A stretch of DNA of 6,432 nt from a virus (Duplodnaviria > Heunggongvirae > Uroviricota > Caudoviricetes): the IMG/VR virus record IMGVR_UViG_3300029241_000122, positions 1-6,432 of that record, one strand, 5' to 3'. A program made the position numbers and the translations under genes. The notes below the pieces were generated by a model. It saw nothing but the letters and a program-made list of their open reading frames with translations. It was not told the DNA's origin and searched no databases. This document shows, piece after piece, positions 1 through 6,432 of the stretch. Positions within the stretch are counted from its first letter, which is position 1; every line of letters begins with the position of its first letter.

Positions 1-221
1 TGATAGAAACAGAAGCCACTGGAGCACCTCAAAAACACCATCATACACTAAATCAGTAAGTTGGCAGCATCACCAACATAATCTGTCGCGAGTGCCGGAA
101 GAGTGAAGCTATGCAGCGTGTACTGGCTTTCTATCAGGGTAATTTTCAGGAGGCGGTACTGTGAGTGAAATTAGCTATCAGGCTTCAATTACCGCTGGCA
201 TTCGCATCAAAGGAGAGGAGC

Positions 222-854: not shown

Positions 855-1023
855 TTTTGGTTCAACTAAATACAACGTCAGTTTTGAAGAATGGCATGAA
901 CTGTTAATGGGCTATGCAGAGTTACGTGGTGGCAGTGCTGCTGATGCTGAAGCATGGCGTGATGATTATGAAGCAGGAAAAACTCCGGTCGAAGCATATT
1001 GTGATGAGTGGGGCGATGAATGA
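847..1023 (+). CDS. Small acidic protein, 58 aa (MADFGSTKYNVSFEEWHELLMGYAELRGG...CDEWGDE)
   Basis: Falls below the 60-aa ORF-track cutoff and was found by hand translation. SD GAGGAAG lies about 7 nt upstream of ATG 847. Its stop overlaps the next ATG as ATGA (1020-1023). Composition is protein-like. Confidence 0.55.
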   Translation: MADFGSTKYNVSFEEWHELLMGYAELRGGSAADAEAWRDDYEAGKTPVEAYCDEWGDE

Positions 1024-1336
1024 GCGAGGTTAATTATCAGGAAGGGCATGAAACGGCGGGGCAAGCAAAAACAGTGGCATGGCGATATCGCTACGTGAAA
1101 AAAAAGGCGTTACGGACTTTCAGGGGAAGTAGTGGTCTGGTGACTGGAAATATGTACCGAAAAAAGAGGATTGTAACGACAGGCCGAACTATGAAATTCA
1201 GGCCTTATTCACTGCCCCGCCAGTCCCGGTTACATCAGAAGAACTGGTTAAAGCTGTGCACTTTTATGAACAACTAAAACGCGAAAATCCACCAGCATCC
1301 GGAAACCTGATTACAGATTCCCAGATAAGGCAATGA
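1020..1336 (+). pseudogene. Frame-disrupted ORF: N-terminal part in frame 0 (MSEVNYQEGHETAGQAKTVAWRYRYVKKK...), C-terminal part in the -1 frame (...DWKYVPKKEDCNDRPNYEIQALFTAPPVPVTSEELVKAVHFYEQLKRENPPASGNLITDSQIRQ, stop 1334-1336)
   Basis: Frame 0 after the A8 run (1098-1105) turns R/K-rich and junk-like. The -1 frame from 1133 to 1336 reads like real protein but has no start codon. Two in-frame A_AAA_AAG heptamers lie at 1100-1106 and 1160-1166. Either a homopolymer frameshift pseudogene or a -1 frameshift site. Confidence 0.4.
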
Positions 1337-1769: not shown

Positions 1770-1888
1770 GACTGCGGGTGCTTGAGGCTATCTGTCTCAG
1801 GCATGAACACCAAAAGGCAGATAGAGAAAAGCCCCAGTTAACATTACGCGTCCTGCAAGACGCTTAACATTAATCTGAGGCCATATCT

Positions 1889-1948
1889 ATGCGACACATA
1901 GAGATTAGCCTCTTACGGACCGAAAGGTCAAGGAGAAGCAGGCTATGA
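1889..1948 (+). CDS. mok-like 19-codon leader ORF translationally coupled to hok (stop TGA overlaps the hok ATG in CTATGAAG)
   Basis: ATG 1889 to TGA 1946-1948, 4-nt overlap with the hok start. Position matches mok in hok/sok loci, but the ORF is much shorter than R1 mok. Confidence 0.4.
   Translation: MRHIEISLLRTERSRRSRL
1902..1931 (-). promoter_or_regulatory. Candidate Sok-like antisense promoter (minus strand: -35 TTGACC, 18-bp spacer, -10 TAATCT)
   Basis: The reverse complement of 1902-1931 reads TTGACC-N18-TAATCT. Transcription would run leftward from about 1895, antisense to the mok-like start region, as the Sok RNA does in hok/sok systems. No clean terminator was found for it. Confidence 0.3.
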
Positions 1949-2109
1949 AGCAGCAAAAGGCGATGTTAATCGCCCTGATCGTCATCTGTTTAACCGTCAT
2001 AGTGANNNNNNNNNNNNNNNNNNNNNNNNNNNNNNNCCTCTGCGAGGTATGAATCCGAACCGGCCAGACGGAGGTCGCTGTCTTCACAGCTTACGAACCT
2101 GAGGAGTAA
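1945..2109 (+). pseudogene. hokD: Hok/Gef family type I toxin gene (HokD/RelF-like), interrupted by a 31-N run and carrying an in-frame TGA at 2050-2052
   Basis: N-terminus MKQQKAMLIALIVICLTVIV matches HokD as recalled. After the N-run the frame reads LCEV-TGA-IRTGQTEVAVFTAYEPEE-TAA, i.e. the conserved Hok C-terminus with TGA where Arg (CGA) is expected. SD AAGGAG lies about 10 nt upstream of the ATG. Confidence 0.65.
2006..2036. other. Run of 31 N (unresolved or masked bases) inside the hok ORF
   Basis: Seen directly in the sequence. If the length is exact, the hok frame is preserved across it. Confidence 0.95.
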
Positions 2110-2178
2110 GAGACCTGGCGGGGGAGAAATCCCTCGCCACCTCTGATGTGTCAGGCATCCTCAACGCACCCGCACTTA

Positions 2179-2204
2179 ACCCGCTTCGGCGGGTTTTGTT
2201 TTTT
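2179..2204 (+). terminator. Rho-independent terminator at the hok mRNA 3' end
   Basis: ACCCGC-TTCG-GCGGGT hairpin (6-bp stem, UUCG tetraloop) immediately followed by TTTGTTTTTT. A second GC-rich hairpin lies upstream at about 2113-2136. Confidence 0.8.
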
Positions 2205-2276
2205 CCTGGCATTCTGGTTTACAATTCGCACGTCAGCCTGAACACCTGACACCTGCTGCGCCAGCAGAGAAAACAG

Positions 2277-2549
2277 ATGGCGCACAAAACCAAATTTCAC
2301 AATTCTGATACCGACCTTGCCATCCGGCATGAGCGGCGTTCACACGCATTTAAAACCGACTGGTACCAACACCCACCATGTACTGAAGAACAGGCCGAAT
2401 GGCTGATTCATTCTTACCGCAGGCGCGGGTTCGAGGTTAAGAAAGCTCTCAGTCTCGACTATCGGCACTGGATAATCTCTGTCAGGCTGCCTTATTCCGA
2501 ACGCCCACCACGTCCGTCCCGCACTTTCCAGCAACGGATCTGGAGGTAA
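2277..2549 (+). CDS. Hypothetical protein, 90 aa; possibly the N-terminal part of a disrupted gene that continues in the 2551 frame
   Basis: ATG 2277 has a weak SD and an in-frame stop just upstream at 2247. The C-terminal residues (PPRPSRTFQQRIWR) look out-of-frame, and the next ORF frame is already open from 2476. Confidence 0.35.
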   Translation: MAHKTKFHNSDTDLAIRHERRSHAFKTDWYQHPPCTEEQAEWLIHSYRRRGFEVKKALSLDYRHWIISVRLPYSERPPRPSRTFQQRIWR

Positions 2550-2550
2550 C

Positions 2551-2958
2551 GTGCGGGTATTACTTAGACCTGTTCTGGTGCCTGAGCTTGGGCTGGTGGT
2601 CCTTAAGCCGGGCCGTGAATCCATACAGATATTTCATAATCCTCGAGTGCTGGTGGAGCCGGAACCGAAAAGCATGCGTAATCTGCCGTCCGGGGTTGTT
2701 CCTGCCGTTCGCCAGCCGCTAGTGGAAGACAAAACATTGCTGCCGTTTTTCAGTAACGCACGGGTGATTCGTGCTGCTGGTGGTGCTGGTGCATTGTCTG
2801 ACTGGCTGTTGCGCCATATTAAATCCTGCCAGTGGCCACACGGCGATTATCATCACAGCGAAACCGTCATTCACCGTTATGGTACCGGCGCAATGGTGTT
2901 GTGCTGGCACTGCGACAACCAGCTGCGTGACCAGACAGGCGACCGCAATCATTACTGA
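2551..2958 (+). CDS. Cys/His-rich, zinc-binding-like C-terminal domain protein (CQWPHGDYHH...CWHCDNQ); resembles DUF968-type lambdoid prophage proteins (YdfU/YdaW-like), probably a fragment
   Basis: Starts at GTG 2551; stop TGA 2956-2958 abuts the ATG of the Rz fragment. The family assignment is from memory and unverified. Confidence 0.45.
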   Translation: MRVLLRPVLVPELGLVVLKPGRESIQIFHNPRVLVEPEPKSMRNLPSGVVPAVRQPLVEDKTLLPFFSNARVIRAAGGAGALSDWLLRHIKSCQWPHGDYHHSETVIHRYGTGAMVLCWHCDNQLRDQTGDRNHY

Positions 2959-2959
2959 C

Positions 2960-3265
2960 ATGCAGATACGCCAGCGTGATGTTGCTGCACTCGATGCAAA
3001 ATACCTGAAGGAGTTAGCTGATGCGAAAGCTGAAAATGATGCTCTGCGTGATGATGTTGCCGCTGGTCGTCGTCGGTTGCGCATCAAAGCAGTCTGTCAG
3101 TCAGTGCGTGAAGCCACCGCCACCTCCAGCGTGGATAATGCAGTCTCCCCCAGACTGGCAGACACCGCTGAACGGGATTATTTCACCCTCCGGGAACGAC
3201 TGGTAATGATGCAGGCCCAACTTGAAGGTGCTCAGCAATACATAACCGAACAGTGTTTAAAGTAA
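2960..3265 (+). pseudogene. rzpR: N-terminally truncated Rz i-spanin (lysis gene remnant)
   Basis: Translation ...ITDMQIRQRDVAALDAKYLKELADAKAENDALRDDVAAGRRRLRIKAVCQSVREATA...DYFTLRERLVMMQAQLEGAQQYITEQCLK closely matches the C-terminal two-thirds of lambda Rz. The N-terminal TM segment is missing. The longer track ORF from 2771 is an out-of-frame read of the upstream gene. Confidence 0.75.
3021..3206 (+). CDS. rzoR: Rz1 o-spanin outer-membrane lipoprotein, embedded in the +1 frame of Rz
   Basis: MRKLKMMLCVMMLPLVVVGC with lipobox VVGC, proline-rich PPPPPAW segment, 61 aa, near-identical to lambda Rz1 as recalled. SD AAGGAG lies 7 nt upstream of ATG 3021. Confidence 0.8.
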   Translation: MRKLKMMLCVMMLPLVVVGCASKQSVSQCVKPPPPPAWIMQSPPDWQTPLNGIISPSGNDW

Positions 3266-3402
3266 AATCTTAACTACAATATGATTCATTTTGATGATTG
3301 TTTCATAAGGAACAGTGAAGTAAGATCTAAGAGGAGTTAAATTTTATACAGTATAATCATAATATTGCAGCAAGGTGGTTATAATTGAAAGAATATTTAG
3401 AT

Positions 3403-4860
3403 ATGAATACATCTCATGTAAGAGTTGTTACTCATATGTGTGGGTTCCTGGTTTGGCTCTATAGTCTTTCAATGTTGCCACCAATGGTTGTAGCATTGTT
3501 TTATAAAGAAAAAAGCCTGTTCGTTTTCTTTATAACTTTCGTTATATTTTTTTGCATTGGTGGCGGAGCGTGGTATACAACTAAGAAATCTGGCATTCAA
3601 TTACGTACCCGTGATGGGTTTATTATAATTGTAATGTTTTGGATTTTGTTTTCTGTTATTAGTGCATTCCCTTTATGGATTGACTCAGAACTTAATTTAA
3701 CGTTCATTGATGCTCTGTTTGAAGGGGTTTCTGGAATAACAACAACAGGAGCAACTGTAATTGATGATGTTAGTTCATTACCTCGGGCATATTTGTACTA
3801 TCGGTCACAGTTAAATTTTATAGGTGGTTTAGGAGTTATTGTTCTGGCGGTTGCAGTATTGCCATTATTGGGTATTGGTGGTGCAAAGCTTTATCAGTCA
3901 GAAATGCCGGGGCCATTTAAGGATGACAAACTCACTCCCCGCCTGGCCGATACGTCACGGACACTGTGGATAACTTATTCTTTATTAGGTATTGCTTGTA
4001 TTGTCTGTTATAGACTTGCAGGAATGCCTTTGTTTGATGCTATTTGTCACGGGATTTCCACAGTTTCGCTTGGTGGTTTCTCAACTCATAGCGAGAGTAT
4101 CGGATATTTTAATAACTATTTGGTTGAGCTGGTGGCTGGTGCTTTTTCCCTGCTATCGGCTTTCAACTTTACTCTTTGGTATATTGTTATTAGCAGAAAA
4201 ACGATAAAACCTTTAATCAGAGATATTGAACTTCGTTTCTTTCTGTTAATAGCCTTAGTGGTGATCATTGTTACCTCTTTCCAGGTCTGGCATATAGGTA
4301 TGTATGACTTGCATGGAAGTTTTATTCATTCGTTTTTTCTTGCCAGCTCCATGCTCACTGATAATGGTTTAGCTACGCAAGATTATGCAAACTGGCCCAC
4401 GCACACGATAGTGTTTTTGCTGTTGTCAAGTTTCTTTGGGGGATGTATAGGTTCAACTTGTGGTGGAATTAAGTCACTTCGATTTCTTATACTTTTCAAA
4501 CAAAGCAAACACGAGATAAATCAGCTTTCTCATCCCAGAGCGTTGTTGAGTGTAAATGTAGGAGGGAAGATAGTTACAGATCGTGTAATGAGGTCTGTAT
4601 GGAGTTTCTTTTTTCTTTATACTCTCTTCACGGTGTTTTTTATACTGGTGTTAAATGGTATGGGATATGATTTTCTTACATCATTTGCAACAGTGGCTGC
4701 ATGTATTAATAATATGGGATTAGGTTTTGGGGCTACTGCATCGTCATTCGGAGTGCTTAATGACATTGCAAAATATTTAATGTGCATAGCTATGATTCTT
4801 GGTCGCCTTGAAATTTATCCTGTTATTATATTGTTTTCAGTTTTTTTTTGGCGCTCCTAA
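3403..4860 (+). CDS. trkG: TrkG, Trk-system K+ uptake membrane protein (TrkH/TrkG family), 485 aa
   Basis: Translation from ATG 3403 (MNTSHVRVVTHMCGFLVWLY...) matches E. coli TrkG as recalled and aligns with TrkH motifs (GATxxxxxSLP, EMPGP, GGxGSTxGG). Markedly AT-rich relative to flanks. An upstream TTG at 3385 preceded by AAGGTGG is an alternative start. Confidence 0.9.
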   Translation: MNTSHVRVVTHMCGFLVWLYSLSMLPPMVVALFYKEKSLFVFFITFVIFFCIGGGAWYTTKKSGIQLRTRDGFIIIVMFWILFSVISAFPLWIDSELNLTFIDALFEGVSGITTTGATVIDDVSSLPRAYLYYRSQLNFIGGLGVIVLAVAVLPLLGIGGAKLYQSEMPGPFKDDKLTPRLADTSRTLWITYSLLGIACIVCYRLAGMPLFDAICHGISTVSLGGFSTHSESIGYFNNYLVELVAGAFSLLSAFNFTLWYIVISRKTIKPLIRDIELRFFLLIALVVIIVTSFQVWHIGMYDLHGSFIHSFFLASSMLTDNGLATQDYANWPTHTIVFLLLSSFFGGCIGSTCGGIKSLRFLILFKQSKHEINQLSHPRALLSVNVGGKIVTDRVMRSVWSFFFLYTLFTVFFILVLNGMGYDFLTSFATVAACINNMGLGFGATASSFGVLNDIAKYLMCIAMILGRLEIYPVIILFSVFFWRS

Positions 4861-4943
4861 TATATGGCTGATTTATAATTGTGAGTTTAATATTATATTG
4901 ACTCACTCATTGATCCAATACCTAACTTTACCAGCAACACCTC

Positions 4944-4980
4944 CGCCCCCAGTAGCACTGGCTGCTGGGGTGCGTTTTAT
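4944..4980 (+). terminator. Putative intrinsic terminator downstream of trkG
   Basis: Stem CCCCAGTAGC / GCTGCTGGGG (10 bp with one G-U pair, loop ACTG), extendable by 3 bp with one bulge, followed by TTTTAT. It lies only about 18 nt before the next start codon, so it may be a partial terminator or attenuator. Confidence 0.45.
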
Positions 4981-4997
4981 TCATAAAGCAAGGCTGT

Positions 4998-5786
4998 ATG
5001 AGCGAGAAATTAAAGATAGTCTATCGCCCATTACAAGAATTGTCACCGTATGCGCACAACGCCAGGACGCACAGTACTGAGCAGGTGGCACAACTGGTAG
5101 AAAGTATTAAGCAATTCGGCTGGACTAATCCGGTGCTGATTGACGAAAAGGGCGAAATTATTGCGGGTCACGGTCGTGTTATGGCGGCTGAAATGCTCAA
5201 AATGGATTCTGTTCCGGTCATTGTTCTGTCTGGCCTGACGGATGAGCAGAAAAAGGCGTACCGCTTGGCAGATAATCGCCTACCGATGAATGCTGGCTGG
5301 GATGAAGATCTGTTGCGGATGGAGCTGTCGGTCCTAATCAATGCTGATTTTGATGTCTCCCTGACAGGCTTCGGCCCGACAGAAATTGATGAACTGTTGA
5401 CGGATGTTTTGCCCGGTATAGGAAATAAGGAGGAGCCGTATACGACGAAAATTGATACGCCTGTTTATGAGCCGTCGGGCGGTAAACCGGATATCAGTGA
5501 ACTGTACGACGATACGAAAACTCAGGAGCTGATCAGCCGGATACGTTCGGCGTCCCTTGATCCTGATATTGAGAAATTCCTCCTGTGTGCGGCAGAACGT
5601 CACACGGTGTTTAATTTCAGCAGAATTGCGGACTATTACGCTCATGCCCCCGCTGAAATTCAGTGCCTTTTCGAGGAGTCGGCGCTGGTGATCATTGATT
5701 ATCAGCAGGCTATTGAAAATGGATTTGTCCGAATGACGCAGCGCATGGTGGAGATCATGCATGGCGGGGAGGAGGAATATGCGTGA
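4998..5786 (+). CDS. ParB-like N-terminal domain (ParB/Srx fold, ParB-like nuclease type) protein, 262 aa, with an uncharacterised C-terminal half
   Basis: N-terminal about 95 aa (KIVYRPLQELSPYAHNARTHS...IIAGHGRVMAA...VIVLSGLTDEQKKAYRLADNRL) fits the ParB-like nuclease domain pattern. May correspond to an intact version of the Rac ynaK region (unverified). Its stop overlaps the next gene start. Confidence 0.75.
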   Translation: MSEKLKIVYRPLQELSPYAHNARTHSTEQVAQLVESIKQFGWTNPVLIDEKGEIIAGHGRVMAAEMLKMDSVPVIVLSGLTDEQKKAYRLADNRLPMNAGWDEDLLRMELSVLINADFDVSLTGFGPTEIDELLTDVLPGIGNKEEPYTTKIDTPVYEPSGGKPDISELYDDTKTQELISRIRSASLDPDIEKFLLCAAERHTVFNFSRIADYYAHAPAEIQCLFEESALVIIDYQQAIENGFVRMTQRMVEIMHGGEEEYA

Positions 5787-6381
5787 TGATTTTTGCGCCT
5801 TTATTCTGACTCACGGACGACCGGAAAAAGTTCTGACTTACCGGACGTTGCGTCGTGCTGGCTATACCGGGAAAATTTTTATCGTTGTTGATGATGAAGA
5901 TAAGACACGGCATCAGTACATGGCTGAATTTGGTGAACAGGTGCTGGTATTTTCCAAAGCCGATATCGCCAGTCGTTTTGACGAAGCCGATAATTTTGGT
6001 GACCGCCGCTCAATTTTTTACGCCCGTAATGCCTGTTTCGACCTGGCAAAACTGGTCGGGTGTAAATACTTCATTCAGCTCGATGATGATTATCACGAGT
6101 TCCAGTTTCGGGTGGATCGCAACTATGACCAGGCCTATTTCCCGATAAGGAAACTGGATGCGATCCTTTCTGAAATGCTGGCGTATTACGAATCAATACC
6201 CGCGCTTTCCATCGCTATGTCGCAGGGCGGGGATTTTCTTGGTGACAATGGCGGCCATGCTTCGTGGGTGAAACGCAAGGCAATGAACAGCTTTATCTGT
6301 TCGGTTGATCGACCGTTCTCATTCATGGGGCGCATTAACGAGGATGTGAATACGGGTAATGCTGCCAACTTACTGATTTAG
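5779..6381 (+). CDS. GT-A fold glycosyltransferase-like protein (family-2-like), about 200 aa
   Basis: Motifs CAFILTHGRP...KIFIVVDDED and RRSIFYARNACFDLAKLVGCKYFIQLDDDY fit the GT2 pattern (strand-helix-strand with acidic patch, then ARN...G.Y..LD.DD, the DxD motif). Strong SD GGAGGAGG before ATG 5779, which overlaps the ParB-like stop by 8 nt. An in-frame ATG at 5761 is an alternative start. Confidence 0.6.
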   Translation: MRDDFCAFILTHGRPEKVLTYRTLRRAGYTGKIFIVVDDEDKTRHQYMAEFGEQVLVFSKADIASRFDEADNFGDRRSIFYARNACFDLAKLVGCKYFIQLDDDYHEFQFRVDRNYDQAYFPIRKLDAILSEMLAYYESIPALSIAMSQGGDFLGDNGGHASWVKRKAMNSFICSVDRPFSFMGRINEDVNTGNAANLLI

Positions 6382-6432
6382 TGTATGATGGTGATTTTAA
6401 GGTGCTTGCGTGGCTTCCATTTCCATCAGATG
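6381..6432 (+). CDS. Partial ORF running off the window end (VYDGDFKVLAWLPFPSD...); either a coupled downstream gene or a -1-frame continuation of the glycosyltransferase-like gene
   Basis: GTG 6381 overlaps the TAG stop 6379-6381 by 1 nt. The frame is open from 6360 to the window end. Confidence 0.3.
   Translation, partial: MYDGDFKVLAWLPFPSD

What the first reader, a model, noticed from the sequence alone, without database searches (positions are those of the whole stretch)
2006..2036. 31-N gap placed exactly inside the hok toxin coding region
This is the only unresolved stretch in the window and it falls in the middle of the hok ORF (codons 21-31). If the length is exact, the frame is preserved, but the ORF is 3 codons longer than HokD as recalled, so the hidden bases may contain an insertion. 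Toxin genes are sometimes unclonable or masked, which fits this location.
Basis: seen in the sequence. Interest (0 to 1): 0.4.

Follow-up and report, generated by a model that had tools for sequence, protein, structure and literature searches.

The report
Assembly gap inside a truncated hok gene
The 31 unknown bases are an assembly gap of inexact length that almost certainly covers 22 ordinary bases of a well-known prophage toxin gene (hok), with no hidden insertion, and the gene is cut short by a stop codon just after the gap anyway.

Summary
The N-run is real: 31 N at 2006-2036, the only ambiguity in the window, inside a hokD-like ORF (ATG 1945). Its length is not believable. Every relative examined has exactly 22 nt (CGGCACTGGTAACGAGGAAAGA) between the same flanks. 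These include an independent metagenome contig (L009) identical to the window over all 6,401 resolved bases and 120 IMG/VR contigs. In E. coli complete genomes, 4,986 of 4,987 matching records cross this stretch with no length variant. Fillers of 23-50 nt were found nowhere in three public collections. The hidden codons should therefore read (T)ALVTRK(D), the normal end of the Hok membrane helix.

The gap lies in the only internal sequence of the window that is exactly repeated in the closest complete genome (EC24). That is a 112-nt hok core shared with a second, Qin-type hokD. The gap edges lie 77 and 79 nt inside the repeat, and the window ends lie 74 and 78 nt inside IS1. This looks like a k≈77 short-read assembly scaffolded with an estimated gap.

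This rare allele (7 of 4,987 records) truncates Hok to 32 aa. The finding is an ordinary artefact in a known, decaying hok/sok locus.

The parts
2006..2036 (.). Run of 31 N. Read here as a scaffold or assembly gap of inexact length that stands for 22 real bases (CGGCACTGGTAACGAGGAAAGA; with the flanking A and C these give hok codons 21-28, T-A-L-V-T-R-K-D).
   Evidence: every relative has a 22-nt filler; no 23-50 nt filler in any collection.
1945..2052 (+). hokD-like toxin CDS as it now stands: ATG 1945, premature TGA at 2050-2052. It is 35 codons as written and 32 aa once the gap is corrected to 22 nt (MKQQKAMLIALIVICLTVIVTALVTRKDLCEV).
   Evidence: translations. Pfam HOK_GEF 44 bits, profile positions 1-27 of 42. 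RefSeq annotates the same allele as the 32-aa 'Hok/Gef family protein' WP_000813248.1.
2050..2052 (+). Nonsense codon TGA (CGA in ordinary hokD; Arg33→stop).
   Evidence: alignment (C in strain 4/0, T in the window and TUM9803); the T allele is in 7 of 4,987 matching E. coli records.
2053..2109 (+). Untranslated remnant of the hok CDS (former codons 34-51, IRTGQTEVAVFTAYEPEE, plus the original TAA at 2107-2109).
1776..1947 (+). hok mRNA leader, the region targeted by the Sok antisense RNA. The 5' element at 1776-1787 is predicted to pair with 2159-2171.
   Evidence: Rfam RF01794 'sok', 106.7 bits against a gathering score of 59, full model. fold.
1889..1948 (+). 19-codon upstream ORF in the mok position (MRHIEISLLRTERSRRSRL). 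Its TGA overlaps the hok ATG (ATGA).
   Evidence: In the commoner leader type the same ATG is in frame with hok (70-aa call).
2159..2171 (+). 3' fold-back element (CCTCAACGCACCC), predicted to pair with the mRNA 5' end.
   Evidence: the MFE structure closes nt 1-12 with nt 375-387; z = -8.1 against shuffles.
2178..2205 (+). Intrinsic terminator of the hok mRNA (stem-loop 2178-2195 plus T-run).
1929..2115 (.). hok core repeated elsewhere in E. coli genomes. In strain EC24 the second (Qin-type) hokD is exactly identical over 1929-2049 (112 real nt, spanning the gap) and over 2051-2115 (65 nt).
   Evidence: the modal exact extension from the gap edges in 120 IMG/VR copies is 77 nt to the left and 79 nt to the right.
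1..74 (-). Terminal 74 nt of an IS1A copy (inverted-repeat end). The window starts inside it.
   Evidence: 100% match to the IS1A end in EC24..
6355..6432 (+). Terminal 78 nt of a second, divergent IS1 copy in inverted orientation. The window ends inside it.
   Evidence: 87% identity to the IS1A end; L009 continues 49 nt further into it.

Best explanation
The 31 N are an assembly gap, not biology. The window looks like one complete scaffold of a short-read assembly of an E. coli Rac-like prophage remnant. Both of its ends stop about 75 nt inside IS1 copies. Inside the scaffold, two contigs were broken in the hok core, because that core is exactly repeated in another hokD-like copy in the same genome or sample. 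The contigs were rejoined from read-pair information with an estimated gap of 31 N. The true distance is 22 nt, and the hidden bases are CGGCACTGGTAACGAGGAAAGA, which encode the normal end of the Hok transmembrane helix and the TRKD motif. Shown here: the 22-nt filler in all relatives, the repeat, and the positions of the contig ends. Inferred: the assembler, k≈77, and the origin of the N count. [quoted passage not shown] Its toxin ORF carries a CGA→TGA nonsense mutation at codon 33, so it encodes only a 32-aa stub and is probably a non-toxic, decaying copy.
For: Filler length:
- L009, an independent MEGAHIT contig from a human gut metagenome, is 100% identical to the window over 1-2005 and 2037-6432, including both IS1 junctions. 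It has the 22-nt filler.
- Three complete genomes, nine further assembly loci and the second hokD copy of EC24 also have 22 nt.
- 120 of 120 IMG/VR matches have 22 nt, and 117 of them have the identical filler.
- A 71-nt probe spanning the gap matches 4,986 of 4,987 E. coli records over most of its length at ≥95% identity, with no length variant among the best places.
- A pattern allowing a 23-50 nt filler gave 0 hits in genome contigs, metagenome contigs and viral contigs.

Cause of the gap:
- In EC24, the closest complete genome, the only exact repeats of ≥40 nt between the window and the 45-kb stretch holding its Qin-type prophage are the IS1 end, a 68-nt leader piece and the hok core (112 + 65 nt).
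- The left gap edge at 2005 is exactly 77 nt into that repeat, and the right edge at 2037 is 79 nt before its end. The window ends lie 74 and 78 nt inside IS1.
- Two other assemblies break in the same gene. L012 (a k119 contig) starts at window 1986, and L011 (Logan) starts at window 2086.
- Five of the seven genomes with the TGA allele hold more than one copy of the 71-nt stretch.

Locus identity: Rfam sok, 106.7 bits; mRNA fold; terminator; Pfam HOK_GEF.

Truncation. A truncated Hok R1 was non-toxic in bioRxiv 10.1101/2025.08.07.668861.
Against: - The source record was not found. Its assembler, k and gap annotation are therefore unknown, and the hidden bases have not been read in the source itself.
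- The k-mer arithmetic is not perfect. A second copy with C at 2050, as in EC24, would make a pure k=77 graph start the right-hand contig at 1964, not 2037. The four end distances are 74(+3), 77, 79 and 78 rather than one number.
- The tool notes say that some stretches in its collections are masked with N. A data-provider mask cannot be excluded as the origin of the run.
Confidence: 0.85

Rival explanations
1. The run is a mask applied by a database or pipeline (a contamination or vector screen, or deliberate masking of the collection). It is not a scaffolding gap, and the biology underneath is still the ordinary hok sequence.
For: The tool descriptions state that a few stretches of the genome collection are masked as runs of N. 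The right-hand gap edge is not exactly where a simple k=77 graph built from EC24-like copies would put it (reasoning).
Against: A mask normally preserves length, yet 31 differs from the 22 nt found in every relative. No other hok copy fetched from any collection is masked: only single-N positions occur in the 120 IMG/VR loci, and there are none in L001-L013. The left edge sits exactly 77 nt into an intragenomic repeat, and the window ends sit about 75 nt into IS1, which a mask would not explain.
Confidence: 0.08
2. The N count is exact, and the source strain carries a real 9-nt (3-codon) in-frame insertion or duplication at the end of the Hok transmembrane segment.
For: 31 - 22 = 9 is a multiple of three, so the frame is kept as written.
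Against: No 23-50 nt filler was found between these flanks in three public collections. No length variant appears among the best places of 4,987 E. coli records. A contig identical over all 6,401 flanking bases and both IS1 junctions has 22 nt. By chance, one gap estimate in three differs from the truth by a multiple of three.
Confidence: 0.04
3. The gap exists because the toxin gene is unclonable or under-represented in the sequencing library.
For: None from the tools. Toxic inserts can be lost from clone libraries (general knowledge).
Against: The same region is read straight through in thousands of assemblies. Only 22 nt are missing, and both flanks of the gene are present. This allele encodes only a 32-aa stub. 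The locus carries its own leader and Sok-target region. The repeat explanation accounts for the exact edges.
Confidence: 0.01

Closest known systems
hokD (relF) of E. coli, type I toxin HokD, WP_000813254.1
   Same: The resolved coding bases are identical apart from one C→T change. The Pfam family is the same (HOK_GEF, 82.9 bits for the full-length form).
   Different: The window has TGA at codon 33, so the product is 32 aa instead of 51. The relBE-linked copy (L010; the K-12 arrangement, from my own knowledge) loses similarity to the window upstream of 1931, so it lacks this leader. The window keeps a complete hok leader (Rfam sok hit). It also lies in a Rac-like rather than a Qin-like prophage context, next to trkG and ynaK.
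32-aa 'Hok/Gef family protein' WP_000813248.1 in E. coli EC24, TUM9803, TUM10008, CH4796 and ESBLEC_HM24
   Same: This is the same nonsense allele. EC24, TUM9803 and TUM10008 were seen to carry it in the same Rac-like neighbourhood. The flanks are 100% identical.
   Different: Those records are gap-free and show 22 nt where the window has 31 N.
hok/sok (parB) of plasmid R1
   Same: The architecture matches: a long leader targeted by an antisense RNA, an upstream small ORF at the toxin start, predicted pairing of the mRNA's 5' and 3' ends, and a terminator. The element names tac, fbi and mok come from the published R1 work and are recalled, not tested here.
   Different: This is a different sequence lineage. 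The mok-position ORF is only 19 codons and ends on the hok ATG. The toxin is truncated. The Sok transcript and promoter were not demonstrated here.
Repeat-induced contig breaks and estimated-size N gaps in short-read scaffolds
   Same: The flanks are colinear with uninterrupted references. The N count differs from the true distance (31 against 22). The gap lies inside an intragenomic repeat, and the contig ends reach about k nt into repeats.
   Different: The assembler and its parameters are not known, and the right-hand edge is 2 nt off the simplest expectation.

Membership tests
Hok/Gef toxin family (Pfam PF01848) | Protein matches the HOK_GEF profile above the gathering score | tested here: met
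   the gap-filled 32-aa product, taken from L009 and the genomes with identical flanks, scores 44 bits against a cut-off of 22. The as-written sequence with 11 X gives no hit, so membership rests on the relatives' filler.
Hok/Gef toxin family (Pfam PF01848) | Full-length peptide of about 50 aa with the C-terminal (periplasmic) part | tested here: not met
   TGA at codon 33. Only profile positions 1-27 of 42 are covered. The NCBIfam Hok models score below their cut-offs.
[quoted passage not shown] | Conserved hok leader / Sok-target RNA element | tested here: met
   RF01794, 106.7 bits against a gathering score of 59, model 1-157 of 157, at 1776-1947.
[quoted passage not shown] | Long-range 5'-3' fold-back pairing of the mRNA, plus a terminator | tested here: met
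   the MFE structure pairs 1776-1787 with 2159-2171, z = -8.1; terminator at 2178-2195. This is a prediction only.
[quoted passage not shown] | mok-type upstream ORF translationally coupled to hok | tested here: inconclusive
   a 19-codon ORF ends in an ATGA overlap with the hok start. Related copies have a 70-aa in-frame version. Coupling was not tested.
[quoted passage not shown] | Sok antisense promoter and transcript on the opposite strand | tested here: inconclusive
   the consensus scan found no sigma-70-like site. By eye, the minus strand has TTGACC (1931-1926), an 18-nt spacer, then TAATCT (1907-1902). This resembles my recollection of the R1 sok promoter. It is a lead, not a test.
[quoted passage not shown] | Toxicity of the encoded peptide | not testable with these tools
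   The only evidence is by analogy: a truncated Hok R1 construct was non-toxic (bioRxiv 10.1101/2025.08.07.668861).
Scaffold gap of estimated size at a repeat | Flanks colinear with gap-free references, and an N count unequal to the true distance | tested here: met
   the flanks are 100% identical; 31 N against 22 nt.
Scaffold gap of estimated size at a repeat | Gap lies within a sequence repeated in the same genome | tested here: met
   (EC24: a 112-nt exact repeat spanning the gap). (multiple copies in 5 of the 7 genomes with the allele). This was shown in the closest genome, not in the unknown source.
Scaffold gap of estimated size at a repeat | Source record documents scaffolding or a gap type | not testable with these tools
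   The source was not found in the viral, genome or metagenome collections or in the protein-position index.

The most novel reading that the evidence does not exclude
The N count is exact, and the source strain carries a real 3-codon insertion at the membrane-exit end of the Hok helix, in an allele that is also truncated three codons further on.
Probability: 0.04. Interest if true: 0.12.

Novelty: not a real feature. Interest (0 to 1): 0.05.

Why it matters
It matters mainly as a caution. The length of an N-run in a draft scaffold should not be read as codons, and a gap inside a multi-copy gene such as hok is what repeats produce, not a sign of toxicity or hidden sequence. The underlying biology is a prophage hok/sok locus inactivated by a nonsense mutation. 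That fits my recollection that chromosomal hok copies often decay, and the allele is already annotated in RefSeq.

Tried and rejected
- Finding the source record. The left IS1/Rac junction sequence gave 0 hits in viral contigs, genome contigs and metagenome contigs. The exact-protein look-ups returned only other assemblies. The origin of the N-run therefore stays inferred.
- Searching for any real longer filler. A pattern with a 23-50 nt gap gave 0 hits in all three collections.
- IS1 inserted in hok (9 bp is the IS1 target-duplication size, from my own knowledge). Rejected, because the bases that abut the N-run on both sides are hok sequence, not IS1 ends.
- A second copy carrying the same TGA, which would make the k-mer arithmetic exact. 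One IMG/VR contig (L134) has TGA at the same codon, but it is a divergent hok and not an exact repeat. EC24's second copy has CGA. The right-hand edge therefore stays 2 nt, or one unexplained trimming step, away from the simple model.
- The 60-aa minus-strand ORF across the gap (1905-2087). It is antisense to hok, and nothing supports it as a gene.

Full report
**Observation.** The window has a single ambiguous stretch, 31 N at 2006-2036. It lies in a + strand ORF that starts at ATG 1945 and reads MKQQKAMLIALIVICLTVIV, then 11 unknown codons, then LCEV. The N-run runs from the second base of codon 21 to the second base of codon 31, and as written the frame is kept. The ORF as written stops after 35 codons and does not reach the old HokD stop at 2107-2109.

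**What the hidden bases are.** The region 1600-2400 matches thousands of E. coli chromosomes. In all 30 listed hits the 801-base query corresponds to 792 bases of the record. Alignment with TUM9803 and strain 4/0 shows that 22 nt, CGGCACTGGTAACGAGGAAAGA, fill the place of the 31 N.

- The same 22 nt, or 22 nt of spacing, occur in all 12 assembly loci that span the site. These are L001-L010, L012 and L013.
- The second hokD copy of EC24 also has them.
- All 120 IMG/VR matches have a 22-nt filler, and 117 of them have the identical 22 nt.
- The strongest single comparison is L009, a 6,522-nt MEGAHIT contig from a human gut metagenome (ERZ914914). It is 100% identical to the window over 1-2005 and 2037-6432, including both IS1 junctions, and it has the 22-nt filler.
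- A 71-nt probe spanning the gap matches 4,986 of 4,987 E. coli records over most of its length at ≥95% identity. No best place shows a 9-nt length difference.
- A pattern allowing 23-50 nt between the flanks found nothing in genome contigs, metagenome contigs or viral contigs.

The hidden bases therefore almost certainly encode T-A-L-V-T-R-K-D, the ordinary end of the Hok membrane helix. The '3 extra codons' are an artefact of the N count.

**Why there is a gap here.** The window begins 74 nt inside an IS1A end and stops 78 nt inside a second, inverted IS1 end. That is how a short-read contig ends, so the window is probably one whole scaffold.

In EC24, the closest complete genome (6,234 colinear bases, two mismatches), a second, intact hokD sits in a Qin-like prophage. 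The two copies are exactly identical over window 1929-2049, which is 112 real nt spanning the whole gap. They are identical again over 2051-2115. Apart from the IS1 end and a 68-nt leader piece, this is the only exact repeat of ≥40 nt between the window and that 45-kb stretch of EC24, which holds the prophage.

The left edge of the N-run (2005) is exactly 77 nt into the repeat, and the right edge (2037) is 79 nt before its end. Among the 120 IMG/VR copies, the modal exact extensions from the gap edges are also 77 and 79 nt. Together with the 74-78 nt at the IS1 ends, this looks like the footprint of a de Bruijn assembly with k≈77, rejoined from read pairs with an estimated gap.

Two other assemblies break in the same gene. 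L012, a k119 contig, starts at window 1986. L011, a Logan contig, starts at window 2086. L010 keeps the same downstream context but has a relB context upstream that diverges at window 1931. This shows that the hok core is a module shared between different contexts.

This mechanism is inferred. The source record could not be found. With a C-allele second copy, as in EC24, a pure k=77 graph would start the right-hand contig at 1964, not at 2037.

**The locus itself.** The locus is a complete hok/sok-type module.

- Rfam's sok model matches 1776-1947 at 106.7 bits against a gathering score of 59.
- The gap-filled mRNA, taken from L009, folds so that its first 12 nt pair with CCTCAACGCACCC at 2159-2171. 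The z-score is -8.1.
- A terminator follows at 2178-2195.
- A 19-codon ORF in the mok position ends in an ATGA overlap with the hok start. In the commoner leader type the same ATG is in frame with hok, which gives a 70-aa gene call.
- The toxin ORF carries CGA→TGA at codon 33. The 32-aa product still matches Pfam HOK_GEF (44 bits) but covers only profile positions 1-27 of 42.
- The allele is rare, present in 7 of 4,987 matching records. RefSeq annotates it as the 32-aa 'Hok/Gef family protein' WP_000813248.1.
- A divergent hok in IMG/VR (L134) has TGA at the same codon, most simply an independent event.
- A recent survey reports that hok is enriched in prophages. In that survey a few percent of unique hok CDS were degenerate (short or with internal stops), and a truncated Hok R1 was not toxic (bioRxiv 10.1101/2025.08.07.668861).

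I therefore read this copy as an inactivated toxin gene. That is an inference, not a test.

**Context.** The neighbours are Rac-prophage genes: a DUF7167 gene, a DUF968 fragment fused to a lysis-gene fragment, trkG, ynaK and a TAGT-domain gene cut by IS1. The context is E. coli or a very close relative.

**Comparison and novelty.** The N-run hides nothing new, and the claimed feature (a possible insertion, or toxin-related masking) is not real. The underlying gene is a known allele of a known family in a known prophage.

**Limits.** The hidden bases were not read in the source itself. A provider-applied mask (about 8%) or a true 9-nt insertion (about 4%) cannot be strictly excluded.

Noticed in passing
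window 2050-2052: An in-frame TGA (CGA in ordinary hokD) truncates Hok to 32 aa. The allele is rare (7 of 4,987 matching E. coli records), and RefSeq annotates it as WP_000813248.1. A divergent hok in IMG/VR (L134:7659-7789) has TGA at the same codon, most simply an independent event.
   Followed up: yes
window 1-74 and 6355-6432: Both window ends are IS1 inverted-repeat ends pointing outwards: IS1A on the left and a variant 87% identical to it on the right. A 6.28-kb Rac segment (hok, trkG, ynaK) is thus bracketed by inverted IS1 copies, like a composite transposon. The same structure is in L009, and L012 shares the right-hand junction. Target-site duplications could not be checked, because all the contigs end inside IS1.
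   Followed up: partly
window 1928 and 1889-1948: There is one extra T at 1928 relative to the commonest hokD-like leader. Together with small indels near 1893, it puts the upstream (mok-position) ATG out of frame, giving a 19-codon ORF that ends on the hok ATG. In the common type that ATG is in frame, giving a 70-aa extended Hok (L013:1869-2081). On the minus strand the same base makes the candidate Sok -35 hexamer read TTGACC.
   Followed up: partly
window 2551-2958 (junction near 2937): A DUF968 gene is fused by deletion to the 3' part of a lysis (Rz-type) gene, with an Rz1-like lipoprotein ORF at 3021-3206. The antiterminator gene and the genes between it and the lysis cassette (seen in TUM9803, L001) are missing. 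The exact 135-aa chimeric product was indexed in 29 blocks of the public assembly collection.
   Followed up: partly
L010 (ERZ773121 NODE_7663), 322-1100: This metagenome contig joins a relB context upstream of hok to the window's Rac-type downstream context, with the switch at window position 1931. It is either a real recombinant at the hok core or a chimeric assembly through the repeat.
   Followed up: no
window 1020-1277 (L001:4421-4737): RefSeq marks the gene at this position in the matching genomes as a pseudogene ('frameshifted; internal stop').
   Followed up: no
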